Assembly: GCF_055900595.2 (NCBI RefSeq)
Contig: NZ_CM148325.1
Strand: one strand, 5' to 3'
DNA: 64,000 nucleotides
The first letter of the stretch is position 1. Each line of letters begins with the position of its first letter. Below the pieces are notes generated by a model that was not told the DNA's origin, made no database searches, and saw only the letters and a list, made by a program, of their open reading frames with translations. Shown here piece by piece: positions 34,684-49,715 of the stretch. A program made the position numbers and the translations under genes.

Positions 34684-36135
34684 ATGGAGTCATCCTTACG
34701 TATTGTCGCGATCACCAACTGCCCCGCCGGGATCGCTCACACCTACATGGTGGCGGAAGCCCTGGAACAGAAAGCCCGTTCTCTCGGTCATACCATTAAA
34801 GTTGAAACTCAAGGATCAAGCGGCGTCGAAAACCGCTTATCCAGCGAAGAGATTGCCGCTGCCGATTACGTGATTCTCGCTACCGGGCGTGGCCTGAGCG
34901 GTGATGATCGCGCGCGATTTGCCGGGAAAAAGGTTTATGAGATTGCCATCTCCCAGGCGCTGAAAAATATCGACCAGATTTTCAGTGAATTACCGACAAA
35001 CTCACAACTTTTTGCCGCAGATAGCGGCGTGAAGCTCGGCAAACAGGAAGTGCAAAGTGGCAGCGTAATGAGCCATCTGATGGCGGGCGTCTCTGCGGCG
35101 CTGCCGTTTGTCATCGGTGGCGGTATCCTGGTGGCGCTTGCCAACATGCTGGTGCAGTTCGGTTTGCCGTATACCGATATGTCGAAAGGTGCGCCGTCGT
35201 TTACCTGGGTGGTTGAATCCATCGGTTATCTCGGTTTCACCTTTATGATCCCCATCATGGGCGCTTATATTGCCTCGTCGATTGCCGATAAACCCGCTTT
35301 CGCTCCGGCGTTTCTGGTTTGTTATCTGGCGAACGACAAAGCCCTGCTCGGCACCCAGTCTGGCGCGGGCTTCCTCGGTGCGGTGGTGCTTGGGCTGGCG
35401 ATTGGCTATTTCGTCTTCTGGTTCCGTAAAGTGCGCCTTGGCAAAGCATTACAACCGCTGCTCGGTTCCATGCTGATCCCGTTCGTTACTCTGCTGGTTT
35501 TTGGCGTACTGACTTACTACGTTATCGGACCGGTGATGTCCGACCTCATGGGCGGGTTGCTGCACTTCCTGAACACCATTCCTCCGTCAATGAAGTTTGC
35601 GGCGGCGTTTCTGGTTGGTGCGATGCTGGCATTCGATATGGGCGGCCCCATCAACAAAACCGCCTGGTTCTTCTGCTTCTCTCTGCTGGAAAAACACATT
35701 TACGACTGGTACGCCATCGTCGGCGTTGTCGCGCTAATGCCGCCTGTCGCGGCGGGTCTTGCGACGTTCATTGCGCCCAAACTGTTTACTCAACAGGAAA
35801 AAGAAGCCGCCAGTAGCGCCATAGTGGTCGGTGCCACAGTCGCAACCGAACCGGCTATTCCTTACGCTCTGGCAGCCCCGTTGCCGATGATTACCGCCAA
35901 TACGCTGGCGGGCGGTATTACCGGCGTGCTGGTGATCGCTTTCGGAATCAAACGGCTGGCACCGGGTTTGGGTATCTTTGACCCGCTGATCGGCCTGATG
36001 TCGCCGGTAGGTTCATTTTATCTGGTGCTGGCGATTGGCCTCGCGCTGAACATTTCATTCATTATCGTCCTGAAAGGATTATGGTTACGCCGCAAAGCCA
36101 AAGCTGCGCAACAGGAGCTTGTCCATGAACATTGA
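34684..36135 (+). CDS. frvB: PTS fructose-like EIIBC component FrvB
   Basis: MESSLRIVAITNCPAGIAHTYMVAEALEQKARSLGH... (EIIB Cys motif), followed by a polytopic EIIC domain. Confidence 0.92.
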   Translation: MESSLRIVAITNCPAGIAHTYMVAEALEQKARSLGHTIKVETQGSSGVENRLSSEEIAAADYVILATGRGLSGDDRARFAGKKVYEIAISQALKNIDQIFSELPTNSQLFAADSGVKLGKQEVQSGSVMSHLMAGVSAALPFVIGGGILVALANMLVQFGLPYTDMSKGAPSFTWVVESIGYLGFTFMIPIMGAYIASSIADKPAFAPAFLVCYLANDKALLGTQSGAGFLGAVVLGLAIGYFVFWFRKVRLGKALQPLLGSMLIPFVTLLVFGVLTYYVIGPVMSDLMGGLLHFLNTIPPSMKFAAAFLVGAMLAFDMGGPINKTAWFFCFSLLEKHIYDWYAIVGVVALMPPVAAGLATFIAPKLFTQQEKEAASSAIVVGATVATEPAIPYALAAPLPMITANTLAGGITGVLVIAFGIKRLAPGLGIFDPLIGLMSPVGSFYLVLAIGLALNISFIIVLKGLWLRRKAKAAQQELVHEH

Positions 36136-37195
36136 GTTACTGCAACAGTTGTGCGAAGCCAGCGCCGTCAGCGGCGATGAACAGGAAGTTCGCGACATTC
36201 TGATAAACACGCTGGAACCCTGCGTGAATGAGATCACCTTCGATGGTCTGGGCAGCTTTGTTGCCCGTAAGGGGAATAAAGGGCCGAAAGTTGCCGTTGT
36301 CGGGCATATGGATGAAGTCGGCTTTATGGTCACCCACATCGACGAGAGCGGTTTTCTGCGTTTTACCACCATTGGCGGCTGGTGGAATCAGTCGATGCTC
36401 AACCACCGGGTAACCATACGCACACACAAGGGAGTGAAAATCCCTGGTGTAATTGGCTCCGTCGCCCCACATGCGTTAACCGAAAAGCAAAAGCAACAAC
36501 CGCTGTCATTTGATGAGATGTTCATTGATATTGGCGAAAACAGTCGCGAAGAAGCGGAAAAACGCGGCGTGGAAATTGGCAATTTTATTAGCCCGGAAGC
36601 CAATTTTGCCTGCTGGGGCGAAGATAAAATGGTCGGCAAGGCGTTGGATAACCGCATCGGCTGCGCAATGATGGCTGAGCTATTGCAGACGGTGAATAAC
36701 CCCGAAATTACGCTGTATGGCGTTGGCAGTGTGGAAGAAGAAGTTGGGCTACGCGGGGCGCAAACCTCGGCTGAACACATTAAACCGGATGTGGTGATCG
36801 TGCTGGATACCGCTGTCGCGGGCGATGTTCCAGGCATTGATAACATTAAATATCCGCTGAAACTGGGCAACGGGCCGGGGCTGATGCTGTTTGACAAGCG
36901 GTACTTCCCCAACCAGAAACTGGTAGCAGCGTTAAAAAGCTGTGCCACGCAGAATGATTTACCGCTGCAATTTTCCACCATGAAAACCGGAGCGACGGAT
37001 GGCGGGCGCTACAACGTGATGGGCGGCGGGCGTCCGGTTGTCGCGCTGTGCCTGCCAACGCGTTATCTGCACGCTAACAGCGGCATGATTTCAAAAGCCG
37101 ATTACGATGCTCTGCTCACGTTGATACGGGATTTTCTGACCACCTTAACCGCGGAGAAAGTCAACGCGTTTAGCCAGTTCCGTCAGGTGGATTAA
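36125..37195 (+). CDS. frvX: M42-family peptidase/cellulase-like protein FrvX
   Basis: MNIELLQQLCEASAVSGDEQEVRDILINTLEPCVNEITFDGLGSFVARKG... 356 aa. Confidence 0.92.
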   Translation: MNIELLQQLCEASAVSGDEQEVRDILINTLEPCVNEITFDGLGSFVARKGNKGPKVAVVGHMDEVGFMVTHIDESGFLRFTTIGGWWNQSMLNHRVTIRTHKGVKIPGVIGSVAPHALTEKQKQQPLSFDEMFIDIGENSREEAEKRGVEIGNFISPEANFACWGEDKMVGKALDNRIGCAMMAELLQTVNNPEITLYGVGSVEEEVGLRGAQTSAEHIKPDVVIVLDTAVAGDVPGIDNIKYPLKLGNGPGLMLFDKRYFPNQKLVAALKSCATQNDLPLQFSTMKTGATDGGRYNVMGGGRPVVALCLPTRYLHANSGMISKADYDALLTLIRDFLTTLTAEKVNAFSQFRQVD

Positions 37196-38943
37196 TGCTA
37201 AACGAACGCCAGTTAAAGATTGTCGATCTGCTGGAGCAACAGCCACGCACGCCTGGCGAGCTGGCGCAACAGACTGGCGTTTCCGGCAGGACCATCCTGC
37301 GTGATATTGACTATCTCAACTTTACCCTTAACGGCAAAGCCCGCATTTCCGCCAGTGGCAACGCGGGCTATCAGCTGGAAATCTTCGAGCGTCGCAGCTT
37401 TTTTCAGTTGCTGCAAAAGCACGATAACGACGATCGGCTGCTGGCGCTGTTATTACTGAATACCTTCACTCCCCGTGCGCAACTCGCCTCGACGCTTAAT
37501 TTGCCAGAAACCTGGGTAGCAGAGCGCCTGCCCCGCCTGAAACAGCGCTATGAACGCAGTTTTTGTCTCGCCAGTCGCCCCGGCTTAGGTCATTACATAG
37601 ATGAGACGCAAGAGAAACGCATTATTTTGCTGGCAAATCTGTTACGCAAAGATCCGTTTTTAATTCCGCTGGCGGGCGTAACACGAGACAATTTTCAACA
37701 ATTAACCACCGCCTGCGAAAAGCAACGTCGCTGGCCGCTGATGCAAGGCGACTATCTCTCAAGCCTGATTCTGGCTATTTACGCGTTGCGTAATCAGCTT
37801 ACTGACACATGGCCTGAATATCCCGGTAGCGAGATAAAACAGATTGTTGAATATAGCGGCCTGTTTCTTGGTGATAACGCTGTAAGAACGTTGACGGGGT
37901 TGATAGAAAAACAGCATCAACAGGCGCAGGTTATTTGTGTCGATAATGTGCTGGCATTGCTGCAAAGGGTGCCGGGCATTGCGTCATTGAATATTATTGA
38001 TACGCAGCTGGTTGAGAATATTACCGGGCATTTATTACGTTGCCTTGCCGCGCCGGTGTGGATTGGAGAGCACCGCCAAAGCAGCATGAATAACCTGAAA
38101 GCCGCCTGGCCTGCGGCCTTTGATATGAGTCTGCACTTTATTACGCTACTGCGTGAACAACTCGATATTCCCCTTTTCGACAGCGATCTGATTGGTTTGT
38201 ATTTTGCCTGTGCGCTGGAACGGCATCAAAACGAACGCCAGCCGATCATTTTGCTCTCTGATCAAAACGCGATTGCCACTATTAATCAGCTCGCCATTGA
38301 GCGCGACGTCCTGAATTGTCGGGTGATTATTGCCCGCTGCTTAAGCGAACTGGTTGCCATTCACGAAGAGATTGAGCCGTTATTGATCATTAATAACAGC
38401 CATTATTTACTGGATGACGCGGTCAATAATTGCATCACTGTAAAAAATATCATTACGGCTGCCGGTATCGAACAAATAAAACATTTTCTGGCGACGGCAT
38501 TTATTCGCCAGCAACCGGAGCGTTTTTTTTCTGCCCCCGGAAGTTTTCATTATTCGAATGTACGTGGTGAAAGCTGGCAACATATTACCCGGCAAATATG
38601 TGCGCAATTAGTGACGCAACACCACATTACCGCCGATGAAGCACAACGGATCATCGCCCGCGAAAGCGAAGGCGAAAACCTGATTGTTAATCGTCTCGCC
38701 ATCCCACATTGCTGGAGCGAACAGGAACGACGTTTTCGTGGATTTTTTATTACCCTCGCCCAACCGGTTGAGGTGAATAACGAAGTAGTTAACCATGTGC
38801 TGATCGCCTGTGCCGCCGCCGATGCGCGTCATGAGCTAAAAATATTTAGCTATCTTGCCAGCGTATTGTGCCAGCATCCGGCAGAGGTTATTGCCGGGTT
38901 AACAGGATATGAGGCATTTATGGCGTTACTTCACAAGGGGTGA
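37195..38943 (+). CDS. frvR: Transcriptional regulator FrvR (N-terminal HTH, PRD/PTS regulatory-like domains)
   Basis: MLNERQLKIVDLLEQQPRTPGELAQQTGVSGRTILRDIDYLNF... 582 aa; start overlaps the frvX stop. Confidence 0.9.
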   Translation: MLNERQLKIVDLLEQQPRTPGELAQQTGVSGRTILRDIDYLNFTLNGKARISASGNAGYQLEIFERRSFFQLLQKHDNDDRLLALLLLNTFTPRAQLASTLNLPETWVAERLPRLKQRYERSFCLASRPGLGHYIDETQEKRIILLANLLRKDPFLIPLAGVTRDNFQQLTTACEKQRRWPLMQGDYLSSLILAIYALRNQLTDTWPEYPGSEIKQIVEYSGLFLGDNAVRTLTGLIEKQHQQAQVICVDNVLALLQRVPGIASLNIIDTQLVENITGHLLRCLAAPVWIGEHRQSSMNNLKAAWPAAFDMSLHFITLLREQLDIPLFDSDLIGLYFACALERHQNERQPIILLSDQNAIATINQLAIERDVLNCRVIIARCLSELVAIHEEIEPLLIINNSHYLLDDAVNNCITVKNIITAAGIEQIKHFLATAFIRQQPERFFSAPGSFHYSNVRGESWQHITRQICAQLVTQHHITADEAQRIIARESEGENLIVNRLAIPHCWSEQERRFRGFFITLAQPVEVNNEVVNHVLIACAAADARHELKIFSYLASVLCQHPAEVIAGLTGYEAFMALLHKG

Positions 38944-38975
38944 ACTGTGTCGGATGCGCCGCATCCGACACTGCA
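38944..38975. repeat. REP-like palindrome / terminator hairpin between frvR and yiiG
   Basis: GTGTCGGATGCGCCGCATCCGACAC inverted repeat. Confidence 0.45.
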
Positions 38976-38998
38976 TTTATCACCAAAATCAAAAACAT

Positions 38999-40054
38999 TT
39001 AACGCAGGCGATTATAATCATCGACCATTTCGTTGTACTCACGTAATGCTCTCGGGAAAGAGTCGTCGACCATCCAACTTGTGTTTGCATCCTGAAGTTG
39101 CTCTTTATCCCAGTCAGAATACGGAACTTTATCTCTGACGCGGCGAACATATTTTTTAGCCTCGAGCTGATATTGATCTGCCGAACTAATGAACGAGGAA
39201 TTCATGCCGCCTTTATCCGCTTCTTTGGCCTGTGCCACCAGCGTTTCAAGTTCAGTCACTTTCTTCATTGCCGCTTCTGCATCAAACTTATCTTGCGATA
39301 TCAGGTTATTAATTTGTTTCGCTGAAATCATGACTGCCAGAGAGTAGTAGTTGAATGTTTTCCCTTCTCTTTGTTCAATATTTTGCAGTTCCGCAAGCTG
39401 GCGCTTATCGTTAATTTCCTGAATCGCCGCATGATAAGATTCTGCTACAGGTTCAAAGGCTTCAAGATTTTTTAAGAATGTCTGGTGCAGCGTTTTCCCT
39501 TTCGCAAACGCATCGTCTTTATAATTTTCCTGGGTGTAATATTTTTCCATTTCGTTAATGGTATTACCCAACGCCACGGCAGCATCAATATAACTCACCG
39601 CCACGCCATCAATAGGTTGCAGCGCAGGCGTTAACGCCACAGCACTTTTTACGCCTTTTTCACACTCAGCGAGGTTGGATTCACTAATACCGTAGATACC
39701 ATAAACAGTACGCTCTTCACCGGTAGGGCCCTGTTTAAAATCTTTCAGCCAGTCAGCATAACGCGCCAGACTGCTCTGTACAGGGATCTGTAACTTGTTG
39801 TAGCACTTGATATAGACATCCATTTTTTCGTCGAAAACCGCTTGTTCATCGACCACCGGTTGAGCAGGCGTTTCAGGTTTAACTTCTGCTTTTGCAACGG
39901 GAGCTTCAGCAGGTTTCGCTTCAGGAGCTGGTGCGGCAGGTTGACTATTGGCAGGCGGGGGCGTTTCTGTTTCGGATTTTTTATCGTCACAACCCGTGAG
40001 ACCGAGGGCCATTATGGCGACTATAATAGCGGAAGATAATAAATTCCTTTTCAT
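38999..40054 (-). CDS. yiiG: Lipoprotein YiiG (DUF3829)
   Basis: MKRNLLSSAIIVAIMALGLTGCDDKKSETETPPPANSQPAAPAPEAKPAEAP... lipobox LTGC, 351 aa. Confidence 0.9.
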   Translation of the reverse strand: MKRNLLSSAIIVAIMALGLTGCDDKKSETETPPPANSQPAAPAPEAKPAEAPVAKAEVKPETPAQPVVDEQAVFDEKMDVYIKCYNKLQIPVQSSLARYADWLKDFKQGPTGEERTVYGIYGISESNLAECEKGVKSAVALTPALQPIDGVAVSYIDAAVALGNTINEMEKYYTQENYKDDAFAKGKTLHQTFLKNLEAFEPVAESYHAAIQEINDKRQLAELQNIEQREGKTFNYYSLAVMISAKQINNLISQDKFDAEAAMKKVTELETLVAQAKEADKGGMNSSFISSADQYQLEAKKYVRRVRDKVPYSDWDKEQLQDANTSWMVDDSFPRALREYNEMVDDYNRLR

Positions 40055-40166
40055 TTAATTGCCTTATAAATAGATAAATAAGAGTGTGAATATAATAAAT
40101 GAAAAAAGAAAATGTCACTACACGCGTTTTGTTTATAAATAAATCGATAATATTCATAAAATGAAT

Positions 40167-40201
40167 AAGTCCTGTAATTTAATTTCTAAATCACAGGACT
40201 T
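40167..40201 (-). terminator. Long imperfect hairpin (aagtcctgt...acaggactt) downstream of the 768-aa gene; probable terminator of the two-gene insertion operon
   Basis: 9-bp perfect outer inverted repeat with AT-rich interior; T-rich tract follows on the minus strand. Confidence 0.4.
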
Positions 40202-40264
40202 ATTTTAATTAACGGCACAACCTTTGCGGGAGGGAGTGTCATGTCCCCCACCATTAATCATGCA

Positions 40265-42571
40265 CTACATCCCGTAGCGTTCAGCAATAGCAGCATGCTT
40301 CTCTTCATTCGCCCCGGCTTCTTTGGCGAGACGCCACCAGCACAATGGATGTTCCCAGTCAGCGGTCAATTCGTGCAAGGTCTTATCGATATCACCTTTA
40401 GAAATTGAACGCGGCGCACTGATAACAAAGTAGAATGCAGGCAGCGGTTCAGCGCCTTCTCCTTGATGACTGTCCGTTAATGTATAGTCGTCATTACTGT
40501 TGCTCCAGTAGTACCAGTTTCGTTCACGGAGCGCCTCACGGAAAGTATTAAACTCTTCTTCACCAGGCATGACACCTTCGCAGAACCAGGACTCGCCGTA
40601 TTCGGTCGGGATAATGGTTTGCAGGCAGGCATAAAGTGGCGTGAAATTCTTCCGTTCTTCCTCATCCTCTGGTTGGGTATTCAACATTTCTGCATCGAAT
40701 ACCACAACCTCATCAACATGTTGCGGATAATCGGTGCGGTAAGTTGGCTCAATGATCCTTGCTGTTACCGGCCCAATACGTTGAGCATAGTAATAGCGGT
40801 ATTCATAATTTTCCCGGAAGCGGATGTTTAACAGCCCCCATTTTTCGTCAATAAAACCTTCACCTTCCGTAAGTTCGATTTCCAGTTCAGCAGCAATAGC
40901 ACGAACCAAATCCCATTGTTGCAGGATGCTGGCGGTCGCCATGATATCCCACTGGAGATTGCGAATATCTTCTTCACGGCTAATCATCAGTTGCTGCAAT
41001 TGTTGTAAATAATCCAGCTGTCGATCCCAGGCTTCCTGTTTTTGTGCTGCCCAGGAGCACATGCGATAAACGCCAACCCACTCACGCCCTTTTTCGTGTT
41101 GCAGCAACTGTTGCCCAATCGACTCCAGTTCACTCCAGTCTTCCTGTTGGTTGATCACTCGCGCACGGAACCACAAGGCCATATGTAGCAGCCCCGCCTG
41201 TTCATACTGCTTCGCCAGGTGCTCAATGGTTTGCAGATCGTCACGGTGGAGCAATAAATCCAACAGATCGAAGCAAAGACCATTATCTTCCTGGATGTGG
41301 CTTTCGACGTAGCGTTGCAGAAGTTCAATCGACTCATCAATCGCATTACAGGCGTTTAACGCATTGACCAGTTTGCCCAGCAATTCCGCATCATCTGGCG
41401 CGTTCAGGTAAGCGCGGCGGAATGTTTCGACGTCTTTTTCTGGATCTGGTTGCGTTTCTTCATCGCTATTTTCAGGTACTTCTACAACCGGACGAGCAAG
41501 CAACTCTGCTTCTTTGGCGGCGATTTTTTCACTCAGTTCGAGAAACTCACGATCAACCCCCAGTAACACGCGTAATTTTGGAATGTGTCGCTGGGCCAGT
41601 TTCATCGCTATTTTGGCAACCCAGACGGATTCACGCTCCAGCGCCAGGGTAATTTGCAGTTTCGCCAGATTCACCACTTTACGGTGCGCGCCGGCCTGCG
41701 AACGATGCTCCAGCATTTTTTGGATAATGCGCGCCAGCTGCCAGTTGTTTCTTTGTGGATGGCGAGGCAGTAGCGCAGTGATGATCTTGATCCAAATCCC
41801 CCACGAAAAAGGCGTAAGATCAGCCCAGCGCGGCAACTCAGCCCATACGTCTTCGTCCTGTCCACACAACGCCATGATATACAGTTTTTTCAACTGATAA
41901 CTGATACGGTCGCGCCCCCAGTAATCATTTTCTTCTGCCAGTTCATCAATCAATTTGCGTGCTTCATCGTAACGCTGCAGTTCAATCAAAATATCGGCAC
42001 GGGTATTCAATAATGCTTCAATATCATCGTCACCGGATGCTTTAACCGCGTCGATTTGCCGATCCAGGTACGCCAATGCCTCTTCTGCTCTTTTGGAATC
42101 TATCAGTGCGCTGGCATATTCGGTGGACAAACACTGAAAACAGCTCCAGGTTGCATCAATTCGCGCAATGGTTTCTTCACATACTGCCATGCGTTCATTC
42201 GCCCAGCCAGGCGCATCAATATTTTCGTAGCAGGCAGATAAATCCTGGGTAACGCAGATAGATTGCGGGCAATCTTTTGCCTCTTCCCGGTGTGCTTTTT
42301 CAAACAGCGCCACCACGTCTGGCAGCACTTTTTCGCCTTCTTCGCGGTTAGTCAGACGATGGCGCATTTCCCAGTGACCAATAAAAATCTCCAGCCAGGG
42401 ATTTTTCGCCACCTGGGTAAGCGCTTTTACTTCTGGTAATAGCGAATCGCATTTTTCCATTTGCAGGTGCATAACGCTTTCCGAATAATCATCAATAAGC
42501 TGCGGAATATACTCCTGTCCGGCATCGCGTAATTCCTGACTATATTTATTGTACCATTCCCATATATTCAT
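40265..42571 (-). CDS. Hypothetical 768-aa, predominantly helical, acidic protein; second gene of the HtpG-paralog operon; no motif recognised
   Basis: ATG at 42571 with AAGGA RBS, one nucleotide after the stop of the upstream HSP90-like gene (translational coupling). No Walker A, nuclease or protease motif seen by eye. Confidence 0.7.
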   Translation of the reverse strand: MNIWEWYNKYSQELRDAGQEYIPQLIDDYSESVMHLQMEKCDSLLPEVKALTQVAKNPWLEIFIGHWEMRHRLTNREEGEKVLPDVVALFEKAHREEAKDCPQSICVTQDLSACYENIDAPGWANERMAVCEETIARIDATWSCFQCLSTEYASALIDSKRAEEALAYLDRQIDAVKASGDDDIEALLNTRADILIELQRYDEARKLIDELAEENDYWGRDRISYQLKKLYIMALCGQDEDVWAELPRWADLTPFSWGIWIKIITALLPRHPQRNNWQLARIIQKMLEHRSQAGAHRKVVNLAKLQITLALERESVWVAKIAMKLAQRHIPKLRVLLGVDREFLELSEKIAAKEAELLARPVVEVPENSDEETQPDPEKDVETFRRAYLNAPDDAELLGKLVNALNACNAIDESIELLQRYVESHIQEDNGLCFDLLDLLLHRDDLQTIEHLAKQYEQAGLLHMALWFRARVINQQEDWSELESIGQQLLQHEKGREWVGVYRMCSWAAQKQEAWDRQLDYLQQLQQLMISREEDIRNLQWDIMATASILQQWDLVRAIAAELEIELTEGEGFIDEKWGLLNIRFRENYEYRYYYAQRIGPVTARIIEPTYRTDYPQHVDEVVVFDAEMLNTQPEDEEERKNFTPLYACLQTIIPTEYGESWFCEGVMPGEEEFNTFREALRERNWYYWSNSNDDYTLTDSHQGEGAEPLPAFYFVISAPRSISKGDIDKTLHELTADWEHPLCWWRLAKEAGANEEKHAAIAERYGM

Positions 42572-42572
42572 T

Positions 42573-44408
42573 TTATTTTCCTTGATTAATTAAGACAGGA
42601 ATAACCTGAGTAAAATCTTCCAGTGCCTGGTGTAAATCCCACTGCTGTTCTTTATTACCGCTGGAGCACAAAATCACTTTCAGCGATTTTAATAACCGTA
42701 ATGCTGCCGCTGGCTGTTGATGGTGTTGTAATGCCGTCACCAGTTGCATGACACAGGGGTTATTAAGATTGATATACAGACTTGAAGTTTTAGTCTTTTG
42801 GATTTGCGAGGTAAATTGCCGCGCCAGCATTAACGCTGCGGTGCTGATGCGTTTATCTGCGTCATCCTGTTCGAGAATTTGTTTTAATTCTGCTTCGCGG
42901 TCTGGCGTAACCACTAACGGTAAAACGGCGGGTTCGAAGCGGGAGATAATTAATTGCTCGCCATCGCAAAGATGCTCTTCCAGATAAGCAACCTGCTCTT
43001 CGGGTAATTCTGCCAGGCTGAACAACTGCTCATTACCCGTTTGCGTACCGACTTCGATAATCCGGCAGTGATATAACAGCGCCCAACGACGTAAAAATGG
43101 CACCACCGCATAACGATCGCCACGGGCTACGGGCCGTTGCAGAATATGAAACAACATCTCTTCAAAACCGCCGTCGCGGCTTAACAGAATATGAATACTG
43201 TTATTAACGCGTAAATCCTTCGCCAGCAGCGCACCTTTTGACGTTGGCACCTGCAGGCGATCTTTGAGTAAATCACACAGACGATCATCACACAAGGCCG
43301 CACCCAGCAACGCTTCGTTGTGGCGCATTAATACACGCCGCCAGATTTCTGGCTGATTTTGTGCGAGATCGGACAAACCAGAAATCAGCGCCTCTTTTAA
43401 CGCCTCCTGCACCGCAACCCAGGTTTCGTCCCGCTGGAGATCTTCCCGGCTCGCCGTAGGCGTTAGTTTCGATGACTCAATCACGCCGCCAATAAATCCG
43501 GCCCAGGGAGGTAACAACTCACGCGCTTCATCATCCAGTAACATACCGCGCAAAAACAGCGACAGGTTACGGTTATCGCTGGTGCCGTAGGTTGCGCCAT
43601 CCTGAATCCATAAAATCCCAACCGCGTCGCTCATCCCCACGGGCACCACCGGAATGGTGCAAATCGGTTCGAAGGAGGATTCAAACTGTGCGGCAAAGGC
43701 GAGATTTTTACGCTGTACCAGCGCGCGGTGCATGGTTACGCCTTCAGGGGCAACTTCACGCCACGGTGGTTGCAGTTTATTCACCGGCTCGCGGGCATCA
43801 CCGACATAGACTGGTTCGTGCAGCAATATGCAATAGCGTGAAAGAACGCGGTTCAGCAAATTGTTACTCGCCAGATGGCTGTACTCTTCTTTGAGCGTCA
43901 GAATCACCTGCGTACCCGTTTCCGAGGACTGATGCGGCGTAACGGTATATTTTTGCCCGTCGGTAGAGTGGTATTTCCAGCTCTGATCCGGCGTTTGCCA
44001 GGATGTGGTCAACACCGTGACCTCTTTTGCCAGTACAAAGGCCGACAAAAAACCGAGGCCGAACATACCAATTAAACCGGTGTTGTCATCCTGCTGGCGC
44101 AACATTCGGGTATAACCCACGCCCACTGTAGCAAGGAAGCCGTGAATTTCGCTTTCTGTCAGACCCGCACCGGTATCAGTAATAGTGATAGTGGACTTCG
44201 CCACGTCAGCCACCACACGAATTTGGTTATCCTTTGGCGCATCGGGCTGCTCAATCCTGCGACGCACAATCGCATCATGGCCGTTCTGCACCAGCTCGCG
44301 CACGGCAACTACGGGAGTGGAGTAAAGATGCTTACTAAGCACCTCAATTAAACCGTTTAAATTAACTTCTGTAGAATATGAACTGCCAGGTAACTGTAAT
44401 GTACTCAT
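42573..44408 (-). CDS. HSP90/HtpG-family GHKL ATPase paralog (611 aa), divergent from housekeeping HtpG
   Basis: Bergerat-fold motifs present: N-box RELVQNGHDA (codons at ~44271-44300), G1 ITDTGAGLT, G2 GMFGLGFLSAFVLAKEVTV (compare HtpG GQFGVGFYSAFIVADKVTV); middle-domain similarity GMLLDDEARELLPPWAGFIGGVIESSKLTPTASREDLQRD (compare HtpG [39 protein letters not shown]). Confidence 0.8.
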   Translation of the reverse strand: MSTLQLPGSSYSTEVNLNGLIEVLSKHLYSTPVVAVRELVQNGHDAIVRRRIEQPDAPKDNQIRVVADVAKSTITITDTGAGLTESEIHGFLATVGVGYTRMLRQQDDNTGLIGMFGLGFLSAFVLAKEVTVLTTSWQTPDQSWKYHSTDGQKYTVTPHQSSETGTQVILTLKEEYSHLASNNLLNRVLSRYCILLHEPVYVGDAREPVNKLQPPWREVAPEGVTMHRALVQRKNLAFAAQFESSFEPICTIPVVPVGMSDAVGILWIQDGATYGTSDNRNLSLFLRGMLLDDEARELLPPWAGFIGGVIESSKLTPTASREDLQRDETWVAVQEALKEALISGLSDLAQNQPEIWRRVLMRHNEALLGAALCDDRLCDLLKDRLQVPTSKGALLAKDLRVNNSIHILLSRDGGFEEMLFHILQRPVARGDRYAVVPFLRRWALLYHCRIIEVGTQTGNEQLFSLAELPEEQVAYLEEHLCDGEQLIISRFEPAVLPLVVTPDREAELKQILEQDDADKRISTAALMLARQFTSQIQKTKTSSLYINLNNPCVMQLVTALQHHQQPAAALRLLKSLKVILCSSGNKEQQWDLHQALEDFTQVIPVLINQGK

Positions 44409-44680
44409 TTTTCAATACTCATAATCCATCACCTACTATTGAAAATACATTGCTGTTTTTTACAACCGGTGCAAGGTTTGTTATTTGCATTCACTCATCG
44501 GAAACATTTATTTATTGACGCGATGATTAAAACAAAATGTCTTATATAAATAATGATTAATTCTTAAAGGATTAATGCGACTGGAGTATATCGATATAAC
44601 CCGGATTTAACGAGATAATTTCTTGTGGTGAAATTATTATTTGAATGCTGAATAATATATTGAGGATTATTTAATAGAAA

Positions 44681-44712
44681 AATAAAACCGCAATCCAGAA
44701 TCAGAATTGCGG
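44681..44712 (-). terminator. Rho-independent terminator of fdhD
   Basis: ccgcaat-(11-nt loop)-attgcgg hairpin followed on the minus strand by TTTTATT. Confidence 0.5.
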
Positions 44713-44719
44713 TATTTCT

Positions 44720-45556
44720 TTAATTATGAATCAATCGCTGCGGATGAGTATAAACCGTTGCCCGACCCGGCTTACAAAAGCCCACCAGCGTCAAATTACA
44801 ACGCTCAGCCACTTCTACGGCAAGCGTGGTCGCGGCAGACACCGCAAACAAAATCTCGACGCCGCACATCGCTGACTTTTGCACCATTTCATAACTGGCA
44901 CGACTGGAAACCAGCACCGCACCTTGCAGCCAGCTTTCCCCTTCTTGTGACCGGCGGCCTAACAGTTTATCCAGCGCCACATGGCGACCCACGTCTTCAT
45001 GCCCGCCTACCAGTTCGCCAGATGGCAACATCCAGGCAGCGGCGTGAGTACAACCAGTCAGTTGCCCCACTGGCTGGAAATCATTGAGATGGCGTAATGC
45101 ATCATCCAGTTTGTTGAGATCAAATGTCTGAGTGAACGGCAGCGACTGCACCGGTTTACCGATGTCATTAAGTTGCTCCACGCCGCACACGCCACATCCC
45201 GTACGTCCCGCCAGTGCCCGACGACGCTCCTTCAACCCCATAAAGCGGCGGCTGGAAAGCTCAATTTGCACTTCCAGACCATTACAGGAAGGAACGACAT
45301 CCATACCGAAGATATCGCGCGGACTTTCGATAATCCCCTCGGAAAGCGAAAAACCGAGCGCAAAGTATTCAAGGTCTTTGGGCGACGCCATCATCACCAC
45401 ATGCGAAATGCCGTTGTAGACCAGCGCAACGGGAACCTCTTCCGCCACCTCATCTAACCGTGGGTGTTGTAAATCGTCACGCCGCCATAACTCAATTTGA
45501 CGAACACCTGTGACATTTGTCACATTTTTGATTTCTTTTTGCTGTGTTTTTTTCAC
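44720..45556 (-). CDS. fdhD: Formate dehydrogenase accessory sulfurtransferase FdhD
   Basis: [59 protein letters not shown]... 278 aa. Confidence 0.93.
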
Positions 45557-45749
45557 TTTCTATTAACCGGATAAGAACACACACACCAACATTATGGTAT
45601 TCTGTTACAAACCCTTCCTGGATGGAGGGAAATTGAGCCAATTCTGGACCTTTGCGGCCCCTTCCGCAAAGAAAAATAACTCCCACTCCCTGCACACGCA
45701 GCAAGCGAATGTAAATGGGACGTGACAATGTCGAAACAAGGAGCAATCC

Positions 45750-48700
45750 ATGCAGGTCAGCAGAAGGCAGTTCTTTAAGATCTGCGCTGGCGGTATGGCA
45801 GGCACCACGGCAGCGGCACTGGGTTTTGCACCCAGCGTAGCACTCGCGGAAACCCGGCAGTATAAACTGCTGCGCACCCGCGAAACCCGTAATACCTGCA
45901 CCTATTGTTCCGTAGGCTGTGGGCTGTTGATGTACAGCCTCGGTGACGGAGCAAAAAACGCCAAAGCATCTATCTTCCATATCGAAGGTGACCCGGATCA
46001 CCCGGTCAACCGCGGTGCACTTTGTCCGAAAGGCGCTGGCCTGGTGGATTTCATCCACTCCGAAAGCCGTCTGAAGTTTCCGGAATACCGTGCGCCAGGT
46101 TCTGATAAATGGCAGCAAATCAGTTGGGAAGAGGCGTTTGATCGCATTGCCAAACTGATGAAAGAAGACCGCGATGCTAACTACATTGCGCAAAACGCCG
46201 AAGGCGTGACTGTTAACCGCTGGCTCTCCACCGGGATGTTGTGTGCTTCCGCGTCGAGTAACGAAACCGGCTATTTAACGCAAAAATTCTCCCGCGCGCT
46301 GGGTATGCTCGCGGTCGACAACCAGGCGCGTGTCTGACACGGACCAACGGTAGCAAGTCTTGCTCCAACATTTGGTCGCGGTGCGATGACCAACCACTGG
46401 GTCGACATCAAGAACGCCAACCTCGTCGTGGTGATGGGCGGTAACGCCGCTGAAGCACACCCGGTCGGGTTCCGCTGGGCGATGGAAGCCAAAATTCACA
46501 ACGGCGCGAAGCTGATTGTGATCGATCCTCGCTTTACGCGTACGGCGGCGGTGGCTGACTACTATGCCCCTATTCGTTCCGGTACTGACATTGCTTTCCT
46601 GTCAGGCGTATTGCTGTACCTGCTGAACAATGAAAAATTCAACCGCGAATACACCGAAGCCTATACCAACGCCAGCCTGATCGTGCGTGAGGATTACGGC
46701 TTTGAAGATGGCCTGTTCACCGGCTACGACGCGGAAAAACGCAAGTACGATAAATCCTCCTGGACCTACGAGCTGGACGAAAACGGCTTCGCCAAACGCG
46801 ATACCACGCTGCAACATCCGCGCTGCGTGTGGAACTTGCTGAAACAGCACGTTTCCCGTTATACGCCAGATGTGGTTGAAAACATCTGTGGTACGCCGAA
46901 AGACGCGTTCCTGAAAGTCTGCGAATACATCGCCGAAACCAGTGCTCACGATAAAACTGCCTCGTTCCTTTACGCGCTCGGCTGGACGCAACACTCCGTT
47001 GGTGCGCAAAACATTCGAACGATGGCGATGATCCAGCTGCTGCTCGGCAATATGGGGATGGCAGGCGGCGGCGTTAACGCCCTGCGCGGTCACTCCAACA
47101 TTCAGGGGCTGACGGACCTGGGGCTGCTGTCGCAGAGCCTGCCAGGTTACATGACGCTGCCAAGCGAGAAGCAGACCGATCTGCAAACCTACCTTGCCGC
47201 CAACACGCCGAAACCGCTGCTGGAAGGCCAGGTTAACTACTGGGGCAATTACCCGAAATTCTTCGTCTCCATGATGAAGGCCTTCTTTGGTGATAAAGCG
47301 ACGGCAGAAAACAGCTGGGGCTTTGACTGGTTGCCGAAGTGGGATAAAGGCTACGACGTCCTGCAATACTTCGAGATGATGAAAGAGGGCAAGGTCAATG
47401 GCTATATCTGCCAGGGCTTTAACCCTGTTGCCTCATTCCCGAACAAAAACAAAGTGATCGGTTGTCTGTCGAAACTGAAGTTCCTCGTCACTATCGACCC
47501 GCTGAACACTGAAACCTCTAACTTCTGGCAGAACCACGGTGAGCTGAACGAAGTGGACTCGTCGAAGATCCAGACCGAAGTGTTCCGTCTGCCATCGACC
47601 TGCTTCGCGGAAGAGAATGGTTCAATCGTTAACTCCGGTCGCTGGTTGCAGTGGCACTGGAAAGGTGCGGACGCCCCGGGGATTGCGCTGACTGATGGCG
47701 AGATCCTCTCCGGTATCTTCCTGCGCTTGCGCAAGATGTACGCCGAACAGGGTGGCGCGAACCCGGACCAGGTGCTGAACATGACCTGGAACTACGCCAT
47801 CCCGCATGAGCCGAAGTCGGAAGAAGTGGCGATGGAGAGCAACGGTAAGGCGCTGGCCGATATTACCGATCCGGCAACCGGGGCGGTTATCGTCAAGAAA
47901 GGCCAACAACTTAGCTCGTTCGCACAACTGCGCGATGACGGTACCACCTCCTGTGGCTGCTGGATTTTCGCCGGTAGCTGGACGCCAGAGGGCAACCAGA
48001 TGGCGCGCCGTGATAACGCCGATCCGTCTGGCCTCGGTAACACGCTGGGCTGGGCATGGGCATGGCCGCTTAACCGCCGCATTCTGTATAACCGCGCCTC
48101 CGCAGATCCGCAGGGTAACCCGTGGGATCCGAAGCGTCAGTTGCTGAAATGGGACGGCACCAAATGGACCGGCTGGGATATTCCGGACTACAGCGCAGCG
48201 CCTCCGGGCAGTGGCGTCGGGCCGTTTATCATGCAGCAGGAAGGCATGGGGCGTCTGTTTGCCCTCGATAAGATGGCGGAAGGTCCGTTCCCGGAACACT
48301 ACGAGCCGTTTGAAACGCCGCTGGGAACTAACCCACTGCATCCAAACGTTATCTCGAACCCGGCTGCACGTATCTTTAAAGACGACGCCGAAGCATTGGG
48401 TAAAGCCGATAAGTTCCCGTATGTCGGAACCACCTATCGTCTGACCGAGCACTTCCACTACTGGACCAAACACGCGCTGTTGAATGCGATTTTGCAGCCA
48501 GAGCAGTTTGTGGAAATCGGTGAGTCGCTGGCGAATAAACTTGGCATTGCTCAGGGCGATACCGTGAAAGTCTCCTCCAACCGTGGCTATATCAAAGCCA
48601 AAGCGGTGGTGACCAAACGTATTCGCACGCTGAAAGCGAATGGCAAAGATATCGATACCATCGGTATTCCGATTCACTGGGGCTATGAAGGTGTTGCGAA

Positions 48701-48800
48701 AAAAGGCTTTATTGCCAATACGTTAACGCCATTCGTTGGTGATGCGAACACGCAGACGCCGGAGTTTAAGTCCTTCCTTGTGAATGTGGAAAAGGTGTAA
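45750..48800 (+). CDS. fdoG: Formate dehydrogenase-O catalytic subunit FdoG (selenoprotein; in-frame UGA at 46335-46337 decoded as Sec; Tat signal)
   Basis: MQVSRRQFFKICAGGMAGTTAAALG (twin-arginine) ... the ORF track shows two same-frame ORFs (45750..46337 and 46386..48800) separated only by a TGA; Mo-bisPGD family. Confidence 0.93.
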
Positions 48801-48812
48801 CGGAGACGACAT

Positions 48813-49715
48813 ATGGCTTATCAATCTCAAGATATCATTCGTCGTTCCGCGACTAACGGTCTGACCCCCGCGCCTCAGGCGCGGGACTTCCAGGAAGAAG
48901 TGGCGAAACTCATCGACGTCACCACCTGTATCGGCTGTAAAGCCTGTCAGGTGGCGTGTTCAGAGTGGAACGACATTCGCGATACCGTCGGCAATAACAT
49001 TGGGGTGTACGACAACCCCAATGATTTAAGCGCCAAATCGTGGACGGTGATGCGCTTCTCGGAAGTGGAGCAGAACGACAAACTGGAATGGCTGATCCGT
49101 AAAGACGGCTGTATGCACTGTTCCGATCCAGGCTGCCTGAAAGCGTGTCCGGCGGAAGGGGCAATTATTCAGTATGCCAACGGTATCGTCGACTTCCAGT
49201 CCGAGCAGTGCATTGGTTGCGGTTATTGCATTGCGGGCTGTCCGTTCGACATTCCGCGCCTCAACCCGGAAGACAACCGCGTTTATAAATGTACGCTGTG
49301 CGTTGACCGCGTGGTGGTTGGGCAAGAACCGGCCTGTGTGAAAACCTGCCCGACGGGTGCGATTCACTTCGGTACGAAAGAGTCGATGAAAACGCTGGCG
49401 AACGAGCGCGTGGCGGAGCTGAAAACCCGTGGTTACGACAATGCGGGTCTGTACGATCCGGCAGGCGTGGGTGGTACACACGTTATGTACGTGCTGCACC
49501 ATGCTGACAAGCCGAATCTGTATCATGGCTTGCCGGAGAACCCGGAAATCAGCGAAACCGTGAAATTCTGGAAAGGCATCTGGAAACCGCTCGCAGCTGT
49601 TGGCTTTGCGGCTACCTTCGCGGCCAGTATCTTCCACTACGTGGGTGTCGGTCCGAACCGTGCGGATGAGGAAGAGAATAATCTGCACGAAGAGAAAGAC
49701 GAGGAGCGCAAATGA
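48813..49715 (+). CDS. fdoH: Formate dehydrogenase-O iron-sulfur subunit FdoH
   Basis: [53 protein letters not shown]..., four Cys clusters, C-terminal TM helix. Confidence 0.96.

What the first reader, a model, noticed from the sequence alone, without database searches (positions are those of the whole stretch)
40055..44719. Two-gene operon (divergent HtpG/HSP90-family ATPase + 768-aa unknown partner) inserted between yiiG and fdhD: candidate uncharacterised system
In the K-12 order as I recall it, yiiG and fdhD are adjacent. Here about 4.6 kb lies between them, carrying two co-oriented genes with a 1-nt gap between stop and start, which implies translational coupling. The upstream protein (42573..44408) has the full Bergerat ATPase motif set (RELVQNGHDA N-box, DTGAGLT G1, GMFGLGFLSAF G2) and a middle-domain block clearly related to HtpG, yet is far too diverged to be the housekeeping chaperone, which normally sits elsewhere on the chromosome. 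The partner (40265..42571) is large, acidic and helical, with no Walker, nuclease, protease or HEPN-type motif I can confidently see. AT-rich non-coding flanks (40055..40264 and 44409..44719) hold a long hairpin at 40167..40201 and the fdhD terminator. There is no integrase, IS or tRNA. A dedicated HSP90-like ATPase locked to one partner protein, sitting as an insertion between core genes, is the arrangement seen for accessory stress or defence modules (GHKL ATPases recur in conflict systems), but I know of no named system with this composition.
Basis: partly seen in the sequence, partly recalled or inferred. Interest (0 to 1): 0.8.

Follow-up and report, generated by a model that had tools for sequence, protein, structure and literature searches.

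The report
Hsp90 paralog with dedicated TPR partner
Between fdhD and yiiG this E. coli carries an ancient, widely conserved two-gene operon, a divergent Hsp90-family ATPase coupled to a 768-residue TPR protein of unknown function (PA1068/PA1069 in Pseudomonas aeruginosa); it looks like a dedicated chaperone pair rather than a phage-defence island, and I found no paper that studies the pair.

Summary
Two co-oriented genes, 42573..44408 and 40265..42571 on the minus strand with a 1-nt gap, lie between fdhD and yiiG. These two genes are adjacent in K-12.

The first gene encodes a catalytically intact Hsp90-family ATPase. It falls below the curated cut-offs for HtpG and for 'HSP90 family protein', so it is a separate clade, nearest Group C (hsp90C). 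The second gene encodes a TPR solenoid with an invariant Cys-rich N-terminal module and a C-terminal alpha/beta domain seen only in this family.

The pair is in 254 of 5426 complete E. coli genomes, always at this locus. It is also downstream of fdhD in E. whittamii, cryptic Escherichia, Superficieibacter and a Salmonella. It occurs as a strictly two-gene unit in Pseudomonas aeruginosa, Xanthomonas, Stenotrophomonas, Betaproteobacteria, Acidobacteria and Chloroflexi. The Hsp90 gene lies directly upstream in 74 of 75 loci with enough DNA to judge.

The defence reading finds no support: the partner has no PADLOC hit, neighbours are not defence genes, the pair is essentially absent from plasmids and phages, and both genes are under strong purifying selection.

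Best reading: a dedicated Hsp90-paralog plus TPR-partner chaperone machine with unknown clients. I found no paper describing it.

The parts
44719..44743 (-). True 3' end of fdhD (...PQRLIHN*). It is the right-hand copy of an imperfect direct repeat that brackets the extra segment.
   Evidence: BLAST of the K-12 empty site against the window: the K-12 stretch CCGCAGCGTTTGAGCAATTAATTAA aligns to both junctions.
44687..44713 (-). Intrinsic terminator of fdhD in this strain (10-bp stem followed by a T run).
   Evidence: Terminator scan; sequence read.
44409..44686 (-). AT-rich upstream region of the operon, presumed to hold the promoter. Some blocks are conserved between Escherichia and Salmonella.
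   Evidence: GC 0.35; upstream alignment of six taxa. The consensus scan found no sigma-70 promoter on this strand here, so the promoter position is inferred only.
44405..44422 (-). Conserved 5-codon upstream ORF (MSIEK*). Its TGA overlaps the ATG of the Hsp90 gene (ATGA). It is preceded by an AGGTGA Shine-Dalgarno sequence at 44429..44434.
   Evidence: Sequence. Conserved in four Escherichia alleles and in Salmonella Infantis (MSVEK*); Superficieibacter has an in-frame extension instead. A role in translation is inferred.
42573..44408 (-). Hsp90-family ATPase, 611 aa, of a non-canonical clade nearest 'Group C / hsp90C'. It has a GHKL N-domain and an Hsp90 middle domain with the catalytic Arg loop. 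The C-terminal tail is not conserved.
   Evidence: - Pfam: HATPase_c_3 and HSP90.
- NCBIfam: NF010683 288 bits against a cut-off of 455; NF003555 (HtpG) 198 bits against 371.
- PDB: best matches TRAP1 and HtpG, E about 1e-30, residues 10-359.
- Family alignment.
40886..42571 (-). Partner protein residues 1-562, an all-helical TPR-like solenoid in two blocks separated by a linker at residues 360-376.
   Evidence: AlphaFold2 model with mean pLDDT 91.7. Foldseek against PDB returns only generic TPR scaffolds such as IFT-A, Ctr9, APC/C and OGT. Pfam TPR hits are weak.
42131..42271 (-). Invariant Cys-rich module of the partner: C101-P-Q-S-x-C106 ... C114 ... C144-x-x-C147. H66, W67, D110 and E133 nearby are also invariant. 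Candidate metal or redox site.
   Evidence: Invariant columns in a 38-sequence alignment spanning 27-76% identity. These motifs were specific enough to retrieve 157 genomes. Metal binding itself is not tested.
40268..40837 (-). Partner residues 579-768, a family-specific alpha/beta (ferredoxin-like) C-terminal domain with the conserved motifs RTGPVTA, QH, VVFDA and PEDEEE.
   Evidence: - Domain model with pLDDT 94.5.
- AFDB50 hits are almost all proteins of this same family.
- No significant PDB sequence match.
40205..40229 (-). Relic copy of the fdhD 3' end (encodes PQRLCR*). It is the left-hand copy of the imperfect direct repeat.
   Evidence: Alignment to the K-12 empty site; sequence.
40164..40204 (-). 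19-bp-stem hairpin that terminates the operon. It is the homolog of the hairpin that follows fdhD directly in K-12.
   Evidence: Terminator scan; K-12 alignment.

Best explanation
The segment is a two-gene operon encoding a dedicated Hsp90-paralog machine.

**Shown**
- Gene 1 is a member of the Hsp90 family with every residue needed for ATP binding and hydrolysis. It belongs to a clade separate from housekeeping HtpG.
- Gene 2 is a cytoplasmic, acidic protein of about 770 aa. It has a TPR superhelix, an invariant Cys/His-rich N-terminal module and a family-specific C-terminal alpha/beta domain.
- The two genes are adjacent, co-oriented and tightly spaced or overlapping in bacteria from several phyla. 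They are inherited together and are both under strong purifying selection.

**Inferred**
- The two proteins form a stoichiometric complex.
- The Hsp90-paralog dimer supplies the ATP-driven clamp cycle.
- The TPR protein acts as its obligate co-chaperone or adaptor. It holds or selects a client on the TPR surface and couples this to the ATPase through its conserved N- and C-terminal modules. The Cys cluster may serve as a metal or redox element.
- The system serves cytoplasmic protein maturation or stress physiology. In P. aeruginosa the homologous PA1069 protein is expressed, is linked to AmrZ, biofilm and calcium conditions, and is not heat-induced. It is not an anti-phage system.

The clients are unknown.
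For: **Components**
- Hsp90 identity and intact catalytic motifs.
- Partner architecture.

**Linkage**
- The gap is 1 nt in the window. In relatives the genes share one base (L007), overlap by 4 nt (L090) or are 22-86 nt apart.
- The Hsp90 gene lies directly upstream on the same strand in 74 of 75 genome loci with enough upstream DNA and in two distant metagenomic members.
- No third gene is conserved across 30 genera.
- All 254 E. coli genomes that carry one gene carry both.
- Pairwise distance matrices of the two proteins correlate at r = 0.94.

**Selection**
- dN/dS is 0.03-0.04 for the ATPase and 0.08-0.10 for the partner.

**Housekeeping-type distribution**
- PA1068/PA1069 sits between a LysR gene and the bra ABC transporter. 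PMC4053335 states that PA1069 appears operonic with an Hsp90 gene.
- 26 Xanthomonas and 17 Stenotrophomonas representative genomes are among the 80 loci kept.
- The fdhD synteny is shared by Escherichia, Superficieibacter and Salmonella.

**Expression of PA1069**
- Detected in proteomes (PMC5541441, PMC4053335).
- AmrZ ChIP peak and 3.2-fold RNA change (PMC3946381).
- About 4-fold lower at 46 C (PMC4957987).

**Sister clade**
- Two Streptomyces 'HSP90 family protein' genes are each followed by a large ORF. In S. globosus this is a non-orthologous 1033-aa TPR protein that starts directly after the Hsp90 gene's annotated end.
Against: - No physical interaction, ATPase effect or client has been shown; everything after the domain assignments is inference from gene linkage.
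- The Hsp90 paralog has no conserved C-terminal EEVD-like tail, so the known eukaryotic mode of TPR docking does not apply.
- In two taxa the partner homolog has no Hsp90 gene nearby: Thorsellia and Nonomuraea.
- The reverse question, whether the Hsp90 paralog ever occurs without the partner, was not tested outside E. coli.
- The invariant Cys/His/Asp/Glu residues could mean the partner is itself an enzyme or metalloprotein rather than an adaptor.
- Loss from about 95% of E. coli shows the pair is dispensable there.
Confidence: 0.5

Rival explanations
1. The partner is the end product rather than a helper. It would be a novel metalloprotein or enzyme, with an active or metal site built from the invariant C101/C106/C114/C144/C147, H66, D110 and E133. 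The Hsp90 paralog would be its private maturation or activation factor, so the partner is a dedicated client.
For: - The most conserved part of the partner is a compact cluster of invariant Cys, His, Asp, Glu and Trp residues, unlike a plain TPR scaffold.
- Protein length is conserved within 752-801 aa in the 26 taxa compared.
- The C-terminal domain is family-specific and carries invariant motifs.
- One-to-one gene linkage.
Against:
Confidence: 0.22
2. It is an anti-phage or conflict system. The TPR protein would sense a phage protein, and the GHKL/Hsp90-like ATPase would switch on a toxic or abortive response.
For: - Presence in E. coli is patchy (4.7% of genomes), at a fixed site between core genes.
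- The ATP-binding region gives weak PADLOC hits to TmtA profiles (best 22.8 bits, E 5e-6).
- A different 877-aa Hsp90-like ATPase on a Pseudanabaena plasmid lies among TIR, helicase, TPR, VWA and AAA genes.
- TPR sensors are common in defence systems (general knowledge).
Against: - The partner has no PADLOC hit. The ATPase hits cover only the Bergerat fold of profiles 1300-1800 positions long.
- Of 20 immediate neighbours in 10 genera, none gave a real PADLOC hit; one gave a weak dynamin/LeoA match.
- Plasmids: 3 of 72,556 records, and by their size (11.85 Mb and 0.85 Mb) two of these look like chromosomal or megaplasmid replicons.
- Phages: the only hit in 50,697 records is a Salmonella whole-genome shotgun contig. 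None of 2.9 million viral contigs matched.
- Widespread among housekeeping genes in P. aeruginosa, Xanthomonas and Stenotrophomonas.
- dN/dS 0.03-0.10, with no region of positive selection.
- No nuclease, protease, NADase, pore or other effector domain.
Confidence: 0.1
3. It is a regulatory switch. The pair would control the activity or stability of one signalling or transcription protein (for example in biofilm or calcium responses), much as eukaryotic Hsp90 holds kinases and receptors.
For: - PA1069 changes with AmrZ, calcium and biofilm conditions (PMC3946381, PMC4053335).
- PA1069 appears in a BatR pull-down list (PMC13411936).
- A regulator gene often lies just upstream: LysR in P. aeruginosa, AraC-type in Xanthomonas.
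Against: - No regulator or other gene is conserved next to the pair across genera.
- The expression data are entries in omics lists, not targeted experiments.
Confidence: 0.1

Closest known systems
Bacterial HtpG (hsp90A), the housekeeping Hsp90 of E. coli
   Same: Same superfamily and domain order: GHKL N-domain with E-x-x-x-N, DxGxG and GxxGxG, and a middle domain with the catalytic Arg loop. It aligns to HtpG and TRAP1 structures over residues 10-359.
   Different: - Only 198 bits on the HtpG model, whose cut-off is 371.
- About 26-31% identity to Hsp90-type genes in the phage collection.
- Encoded with an obligate partner gene.
- The P. aeruginosa homolog's partner transcript falls at 46 C (PMC4957987).
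- Dispensable in most E. coli.
- The literature states that no obligate co-chaperone of bacterial Hsp90 is known (PMC3708813).
'HSP90 family protein' NF010683 / PRK14083 and the Group C (hsp90C) HtpG paralogs of Chen et al. 2006
   Same: - It is the best-scoring curated model, aligned almost end to end (residues 13-570).
- Gamma-proteobacterial non-A copies were placed in Group C (PMC1525184).
- Two Streptomyces members of this model's clade are also followed by a large ORF, a TPR protein in S. globosus.
   Different: - All partner-linked proteins tested score 249-292 bits, well below the 455-bit cut-off, so they form their own clade. PGAP names them only 'ATP-binding protein'.
- The Streptomyces partner is not homologous to this one outside generic TPR.
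- Group C assignment rests on the paper's text, not on a tree computed here.
Eukaryotic Hsp90 with TPR co-chaperones (Hop/Sti1, PP5, CHIP, FKBP51/52)
   Same: An Hsp90 ATPase working with a TPR-containing protein, and the idea of an adaptor that brings clients to the clamp.
   Different: - The partner is much larger and carries two family-specific modules.
- The resemblance is functional analogy, not homology.
GHKL ATPases of conflict systems (MORC/paraMORC, TmtA; TmtA as the Tiamat protein is my recollection, not verified)
   Same: The Bergerat ATP-binding fold, with weak PADLOC hits to TmtA over residues 13-137.
   Different: - The match is limited to the nucleotide-binding fold.
- The middle domain is clearly Hsp90-type.
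- There is no associated restriction, nuclease or other effector gene and no defence-island context.

Membership tests
Hsp90 superfamily | Bergerat ATP-binding motifs (catalytic Glu and Mg-binding Asn, DxGxG, GxxGxG) | tested here: met
   R37-E38-L39-x-Q41-N42, D78-x-G80-x-G82 and G114-x-F116-G117-x-G119-F120 are invariant in 9 diverse members. They align to the same motifs in TRAP1. Pfam HATPase_c_3, E 2.9e-9.
Hsp90 superfamily | Hsp90-type middle domain with the catalytic Arg loop (…SRExLQ…) | tested here: met
   Pfam HSP90 over residues 274-353. T318-A319-S-R321-E322-D-L-Q325 is invariant and aligns to SRELLQ of TRAP1.
Hsp90 superfamily | C-terminal dimerisation domain | tested here: inconclusive
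   The NF010683 alignment runs to residue 570 of 611, and the 400-560 region is conserved in the family. No structural model of this protein was made, and no PDB alignment extends beyond residue 363.
Housekeeping HtpG (NF003555) | Whole-protein score above the curated cut-off (371 bits) | tested here: not met
   198 bits; 174-192 bits for six relatives.
'HSP90 family protein' NF010683 | Whole-protein score above the curated cut-off (455 bits) | tested here: not met
   288 bits; 249-292 bits for six partner-linked relatives.
Eukaryote-type Hsp90/TPR co-chaperone pair | Conserved acidic C-terminal peptide (MEEVD) on the Hsp90 for the TPR clamp | tested here: not met
   The last 30 or so residues are variable in sequence and length across 26 taxa, with no EEVD.
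Eukaryote-type Hsp90/TPR co-chaperone pair | TPR repeats in the partner | tested here: met
   Pfam TPR_12 and TPR_19 are weak in this protein and stronger in relatives. The high-confidence helical solenoid matches TPR scaffolds.
Known anti-phage defence systems (PADLOC-DB 2.0) | Proteins match the system's HMMs | tested here: not met
   Partner: no hit. ATPase: only weak hits to the N-terminal fold of TmtA and REase_II profiles, at most 22.8 bits.
Known anti-phage defence systems (PADLOC-DB 2.0) | Enrichment next to other defence genes or on mobile elements | tested here: not met
   - 0 of 20 immediate neighbours gave a real hit.
- 3 of 72,556 plasmid records.
- No genuine phage record and no viral contig.
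- Only a small sample of neighbours was scanned.
Integrative genomic island | Integrase, IS or tRNA at the border, and flanking direct repeats | tested here: inconclusive
   No integrase, IS or tRNA. An imperfect direct repeat of the fdhD 3' end does bracket the segment, consistent with an old insertion into, or deletion across, the end of fdhD.

The most novel reading that the evidence does not exclude
This is the first obligate partner system of a bacterial Hsp90. An ancient Hsp90 paralog would work only as a complex with a dedicated TPR protein, whose Cys-rich module makes the machine metal- or redox-responsive. If so, Hsp90-plus-TPR-adaptor machines exist in bacteria independently of the eukaryotic MEEVD mechanism. 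Non-canonical bacterial Hsp90 paralogs in general (this clade, and the Streptomyces clade with its own TPR protein) would then be two-component machines.
Probability: 0.35. Interest if true: 0.8.

Novelty: new variant of a known kind. Interest (0 to 1): 0.6.

Why it matters
- Bacterial Hsp90 is usually described as working without obligate co-chaperones (stated in PMC3708813). The non-canonical paralogs hsp90B and hsp90C were set aside in the one large evolutionary study found here.
- A paralog that is genetically locked to one large TPR protein across several phyla gives a concrete system for asking how Hsp90 machines acquire partners and clients.
- The system is tractable. It is present in P. 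aeruginosa PAO1, plant-pathogenic Xanthomonas, Stenotrophomonas maltophilia, EPEC E2348/69 and some ST131 E. coli.
- It also assigns a context to about 550 clusters (at 50% identity) of 'hypothetical / tetratricopeptide repeat' proteins.
- It corrects the expectation that this E. coli locus is a defence island.

Tried and rejected
- **Third homolog search.** A search with an Hsp90-paralog profile was meant to find distant members and test whether they ever lack the partner. It listed only near-identical Escherichia proteins and gave no answer.
- **DefensePredictor.** The main text and 12 supplements contain none of the four RefSeq accessions of this pair. The phrase 'molecular chaperone HtpG' appears only in a table of product names that could not be tied to this family.
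- **Literature searches.** Searches for the pair, 'Hsp90xo', PA1068/PA1069 and TmtA/Tiamat found only omics-table mentions of PA1069 and the general paralog classification.
- **Full-length Foldseek against PDB.** Only generic TPR scaffolds.
- **Cys-cluster geometry.** It could not be examined because model coordinates are not returned.
- **Heat-shock or sigma-54 promoter.** A reading of the upstream region by eye showed nothing convincing, and the sigma-70 scan found no site on the coding strand there.
- **Positive selection.** Rejected. The variable stretch at partner residues 150-270 has dS of 0.7-2.0 and dN/dS of about 0.05-0.2, which indicates a recombination mosaic.
- **Shared ancestry with the Streptomyces 1033-aa partner.** Rejected (hhalign probability 18% and 0.3%).
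Full report
**1. Observation**

The junction reads ...AAA TAA A ATG..., a 1-nt gap. GC falls to 0.35-0.41 in both flanks. A 19-bp-stem hairpin lies at 40164..40204 and a terminator follows fdhD at 44687..44713. No tRNA lies in 36000..49000, and no ORF for an integrase or transposase lies in the segment. In K-12, yiiG and fdhD are separated by 152 bp.

**2. Junction anatomy**

Aligning the K-12 empty site to the window shows that the last 25 nt or so of fdhD is present twice. The functional end is at 44719..44743 (...PQRLIHN*). A relic is at 40205..40229 and would encode PQRLCR*. The relic is followed directly by the hairpin, which in K-12 follows fdhD (...PQRLSN*). The extra DNA is therefore about 40230..44718. 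It is bracketed by an imperfect direct repeat, it carries its own fdhD terminator, and the original fdhD hairpin now terminates the new operon. This fits either an old insertion into the end of fdhD or a deletion across the repeat in the empty alleles. The data do not decide between the two.

**3. Distribution in Escherichia and relatives**

- The pair is in 254 of 5426 complete E. coli genomes. It is always chromosomal, single-copy and at this locus.
- Allele classes are about 100, 94.4, 94.0 and 91.4% identical to the window. Carriers include EPEC E2348/69 and some O25b:H4-ST131 strains.
- The window is identical over the 5.8-kb query to E. coli E200086 from stool in Mali. RefSeq annotates the genes there as 'ATP-binding protein' and 'tetratricopeptide repeat protein'.
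- Other sources name the first protein 'Hsp90xo protein', 'heat shock protein (Hsp90-family)' or 'molecular chaperone HtpG'. It also occurs in E. fergusonii, E. ruysiae, E. whittamii and unnamed Escherichia clades.
- The fdhD-[pair]-yiiG order is shared by E. whittamii, Escherichia sp. MOD1-EC7003 and Superficieibacter sp. 1612_C1, where the proteins are 87% and 73% identical to the window's; Escherichia sp. E1V33 shows the pair followed by yiiG, its contig ending upstream.
- In Salmonella Infantis SARB27 the pair again lies downstream of fdhD.
- The arrangement is therefore old in this part of the Enterobacteriaceae. It is not a recent acquisition by one strain.

**4. The ATPase**

- Pfam finds HATPase_c_3 and the Hsp90 middle domain.
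- The best solved relatives are TRAP1 and HtpG, at E about 1e-30 over residues 10-359. The catalytic Glu/Asn box, DxGxG, GxxGxG and the middle-domain SRExLQ loop all align.
- These residues are invariant in nine members from distant taxa.
- The protein scores 288 bits on NF010683 'HSP90 family protein' (cut-off 455) and 198 bits on HtpG NF003555 (cut-off 371).
- Six partner-linked relatives from Pseudomonas, Xanthomonas, Holophaga, a Chloroflexi MAG and two metagenomes score 249-292 and 174-192 bits.
- This is a distinct Hsp90 clade without a curated model. It is nearest to what Chen et al. called Group C, where non-A copies from gamma-proteobacteria were placed (PMC1525184).
- Press et al. 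excluded hsp90B and hsp90C from their analysis. They also noted that no obligate bacterial Hsp90 co-chaperone is known (PMC3708813).
- The C-terminal tail is variable and has no EEVD-like motif.

**5. The partner**

- There is no PADLOC, NCBIfam or PHROG family and no significant PDB sequence match. Pfam finds only weak TPR repeats, in this protein and in 38 relatives.
- The family is large and uniform. A profile search finds 551 clusters (at 50% identity) at E below 1e-30, and nearly all of the 150 listed are 730-800 aa, apart from a few truncated ones.
- An AlphaFold2 model built on 38 sequences is confident, with mean pLDDT 91.7. Residues 1-562 are helical hairpins in two blocks, and residues 579-768 form an alpha/beta domain.
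- The whole model matches only generic TPR scaffolds.
- In AFDB50 almost all top hits to that domain are proteins of this same family (or fragments of them). They include members from Actinomycetota and Myxococcota.
- The alignment shows a striking set of invariant residues in the first 150 positions: W6, G18, E47, W59, H66, W67, C101, P102, Q103, C106, D110, Y115, D119, E133, C144 and C147, with C114 nearly invariant. This suggests a metal, redox or catalytic site. It could not be tested here.
- The protein is acidic (pI 4.70) and rich in Trp. PSORT notes in the Salmonella record call both proteins cytoplasmic.

**6. Linkage**

- A scan of one genome per species found 157 genomes with the partner's two signature motifs.
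- The 80 loci kept include 26 Xanthomonas and 17 Stenotrophomonas representatives. They also include P. aeruginosa PA7, Phytobacter, Kosakonia, Budvicia, Lysobacter, Psychrobacter, Wohlfahrtiimonas, Azovibrio, Azoarcus, Duganella, Variovorax, Holophaga, and Chloroflexi and Alphaproteobacteria MAGs.
- The Hsp90 paralog lies directly upstream on the same strand in 74 of the 75 loci that have enough upstream DNA. The same is true in Cronobacter, P. aeruginosa and Xanthomonas contigs and in two distant metagenomic members.
- Clustering all flanking ORFs from 30 genera finds no third conserved gene.
- The ATPase is much better conserved than the partner: 52-62% identity against 30-40%. Their pairwise distances correlate at r = 0.94.
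- There are two exceptions. In Thorsellia a NadV-like gene and an 850-nt gap lie upstream. In Nonomuraea a 25%-identical full-length homolog lies between miaA/dapF and an SDR gene.
- P. aeruginosa neighbours (a LysR gene, the five bra-type ABC transporter genes, then flagellar rod genes) fit PA1067 to PA1077. PMC4053335 says PA1069 appears operonic with an Hsp90 gene. The pair is therefore PA1068/PA1069; the locus numbering is partly from my own knowledge.

**7. Is it a defence system?**

- The partner has no PADLOC hit. The ATPase gives only weak hits to the ATP-binding fold of much longer TmtA profiles.
- Immediate neighbours in ten genera gave no real PADLOC hit in 20 proteins.
- The partner is found in 3 of 72,556 plasmid records. 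By size, two of these (0.85 Mb and 11.85 Mb) look like chromosomal or megaplasmid replicons.
- Its single hit in the phage collection is a Salmonella whole-genome shotgun contig. No match exists in 2.9 million viral contigs.
- Phage records contain only distant HtpG-like genes.
- Between Escherichia alleles, dN/dS is 0.03-0.04 for the ATPase and 0.08-0.10 for the partner. For comparison, yiiG is 0.21 and fdhD is 0.03.
- The variable stretch at partner residues 150-270 has very high dS (0.7-2.0). That indicates recombination between old alleles rather than diversifying selection.
- No effector domain is present.
- These results do not exclude a defence role, but nothing supports one. I note that a different 877-aa Hsp90-like ATPase on a Pseudanabaena plasmid does sit among TIR, helicase, TPR, VWA and AAA genes.

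**8. What it most likely does**

Several points argue for two subunits of one machine:
- tight spacing or overlap of the two genes;
- near-universal adjacency across phyla;
- joint inheritance;
- strong constraint on both genes.

I take the ATPase to provide the Hsp90 clamp cycle. I take the TPR protein to be its obligate co-chaperone or adaptor, or alternatively its dedicated client. The Cys-rich module is a possible metal or redox element.

Omics data from P. aeruginosa show that PA1069 is made under ordinary growth (PMC5541441, PMC4053335). It has an AmrZ ChIP peak and a 3.2-fold RNA change (PMC3946381). Its transcript is lower, not higher, at 46 C (PMC4957987). This is not a classical heat-shock gene.

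A parallel exists in the sister clade. Two Streptomyces 'HSP90 family protein' genes are each followed by a large ORF. In S. globosus this is a non-homologous 1033-aa protein with TPR repeats that starts directly after the Hsp90 gene's annotated end. A Paenibacillus Hsp90-like gene overlaps a 353-aa ORF. Dedicated partners may be a general feature of non-canonical bacterial Hsp90s. This rests on three examples only.

**9. Comparison and novelty**

- The ATPase is a member of the Hsp90 superfamily. It is not HtpG and not NF010683 by the curated thresholds.
- The pair works like an Hsp90/TPR co-chaperone system only by analogy, because the defining EEVD docking feature was tested and is absent.
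- I found no paper that describes the pair.
- I rate it a new variant of a known kind, an Hsp90 chaperone system with a fixed, novel partner. Interest is 0.6. A chaperone specialist would find an obligately partnered bacterial Hsp90 unexpected, and the system is easy to test. The mechanism remains inferred, and the defence reading that motivated the original score is not supported.

Noticed in passing
window 44405..44434 (-): A 5-codon upstream ORF (ATG AGT ATT GAA AAA TGA) with a good Shine-Dalgarno sequence (AGGTGA, 6-nt spacer) ends in an ATGA overlap with the start of the Hsp90-paralog gene. It is conserved in four Escherichia alleles and in Salmonella Infantis. Superficieibacter has an in-frame N-terminal extension instead. 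It may couple or tune translation of the operon.
   Followed up: partly
window 38999..40054 (yiiG): yiiG is unusually polymorphic. Against strain 1380 it shows dS 0.52 and dN/dS 0.21. In many E. coli genomes only 10-14% of the 5.8-kb query matches, and the neighbouring gene is annotated as a divergent 'DUF3829 domain-containing protein' (rows H22-H30).
   Followed up: no
window 41760..42120 (partner residues about 150-270): Synonymous divergence between Escherichia alleles of the partner gene jumps from about 0.1-0.4 to 0.7-2.0 in this stretch, while dN/dS stays at about 0.05-0.2. This indicates an old recombination mosaic inside the gene.
   Followed up: partly
window 45750..48800 (+): The formate dehydrogenase alpha-subunit gene appears as two ORFs (45750..46337 and 46386..48800). 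The first ends at an in-frame TGA. RefSeq annotates one 3051-nt CDS. From general knowledge of fdoG/fdnG this is the selenocysteine codon.
   Followed up: partly
window 32356..33750 (-): A 464-aa ORF, annotated 'carbohydrate porin' in the identical RefSeq record, lies between rhaM and frvA. I do not recall a gene there in K-12, so it may be another variable gene in this region.
   Followed up: no
window 52978..54831 (-): A continuous 617-aa ORF lies where the E200086 RefSeq record annotates a transposase plus an incomplete 'hypothetical protein' pseudogene. Downstream ORF coordinates also differ from that record, so the window and the record may differ here.
   Followed up: no
L095 4989..9959; L098 5950..10907: In Streptomyces globosus and S. 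chartreusis, the genuine 'HSP90 family protein' gene is followed by a large ORF. In S. globosus it is an uncharacterised 1033-aa protein with TPR repeats, unrelated to the 768-aa family, that starts directly after the Hsp90 gene. In S. chartreusis the ORF is up to 1121 aa and was not characterised.
   Followed up: partly
L096 5210..12790: On a Pseudanabaena plasmid, an 877-aa Hsp90-like 'ATP-binding protein' lies next to genes for a TIR protein, a 1417-aa DEAD/DEAH helicase, a TPR protein, a VWA protein and an AAA ATPase. This looks like a defence-type context for a different Hsp90-like clade.
   Followed up: no
L073 3902..4754; L094 1..12268: Two partner homologs have no Hsp90 gene beside them. 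In Thorsellia anophelis an 850-nt non-coding gap lies after a NadV-like gene. In Nonomuraea gerenzanensis the homolog lies between miaA/dapF and an SDR gene. I did not check whether the ATPase is encoded elsewhere in these genomes.
   Followed up: partly
window 42573..44408 (protein residues 127-415): The Hsp90 paralog matches PHROG family phrog_32952 (unknown function) at E 7.7e-18. Some phage gene families therefore contain Hsp90 middle-domain relatives. Phage records hold only distant HtpG-like genes, for example in Lak megaphages.
   Followed up: partly
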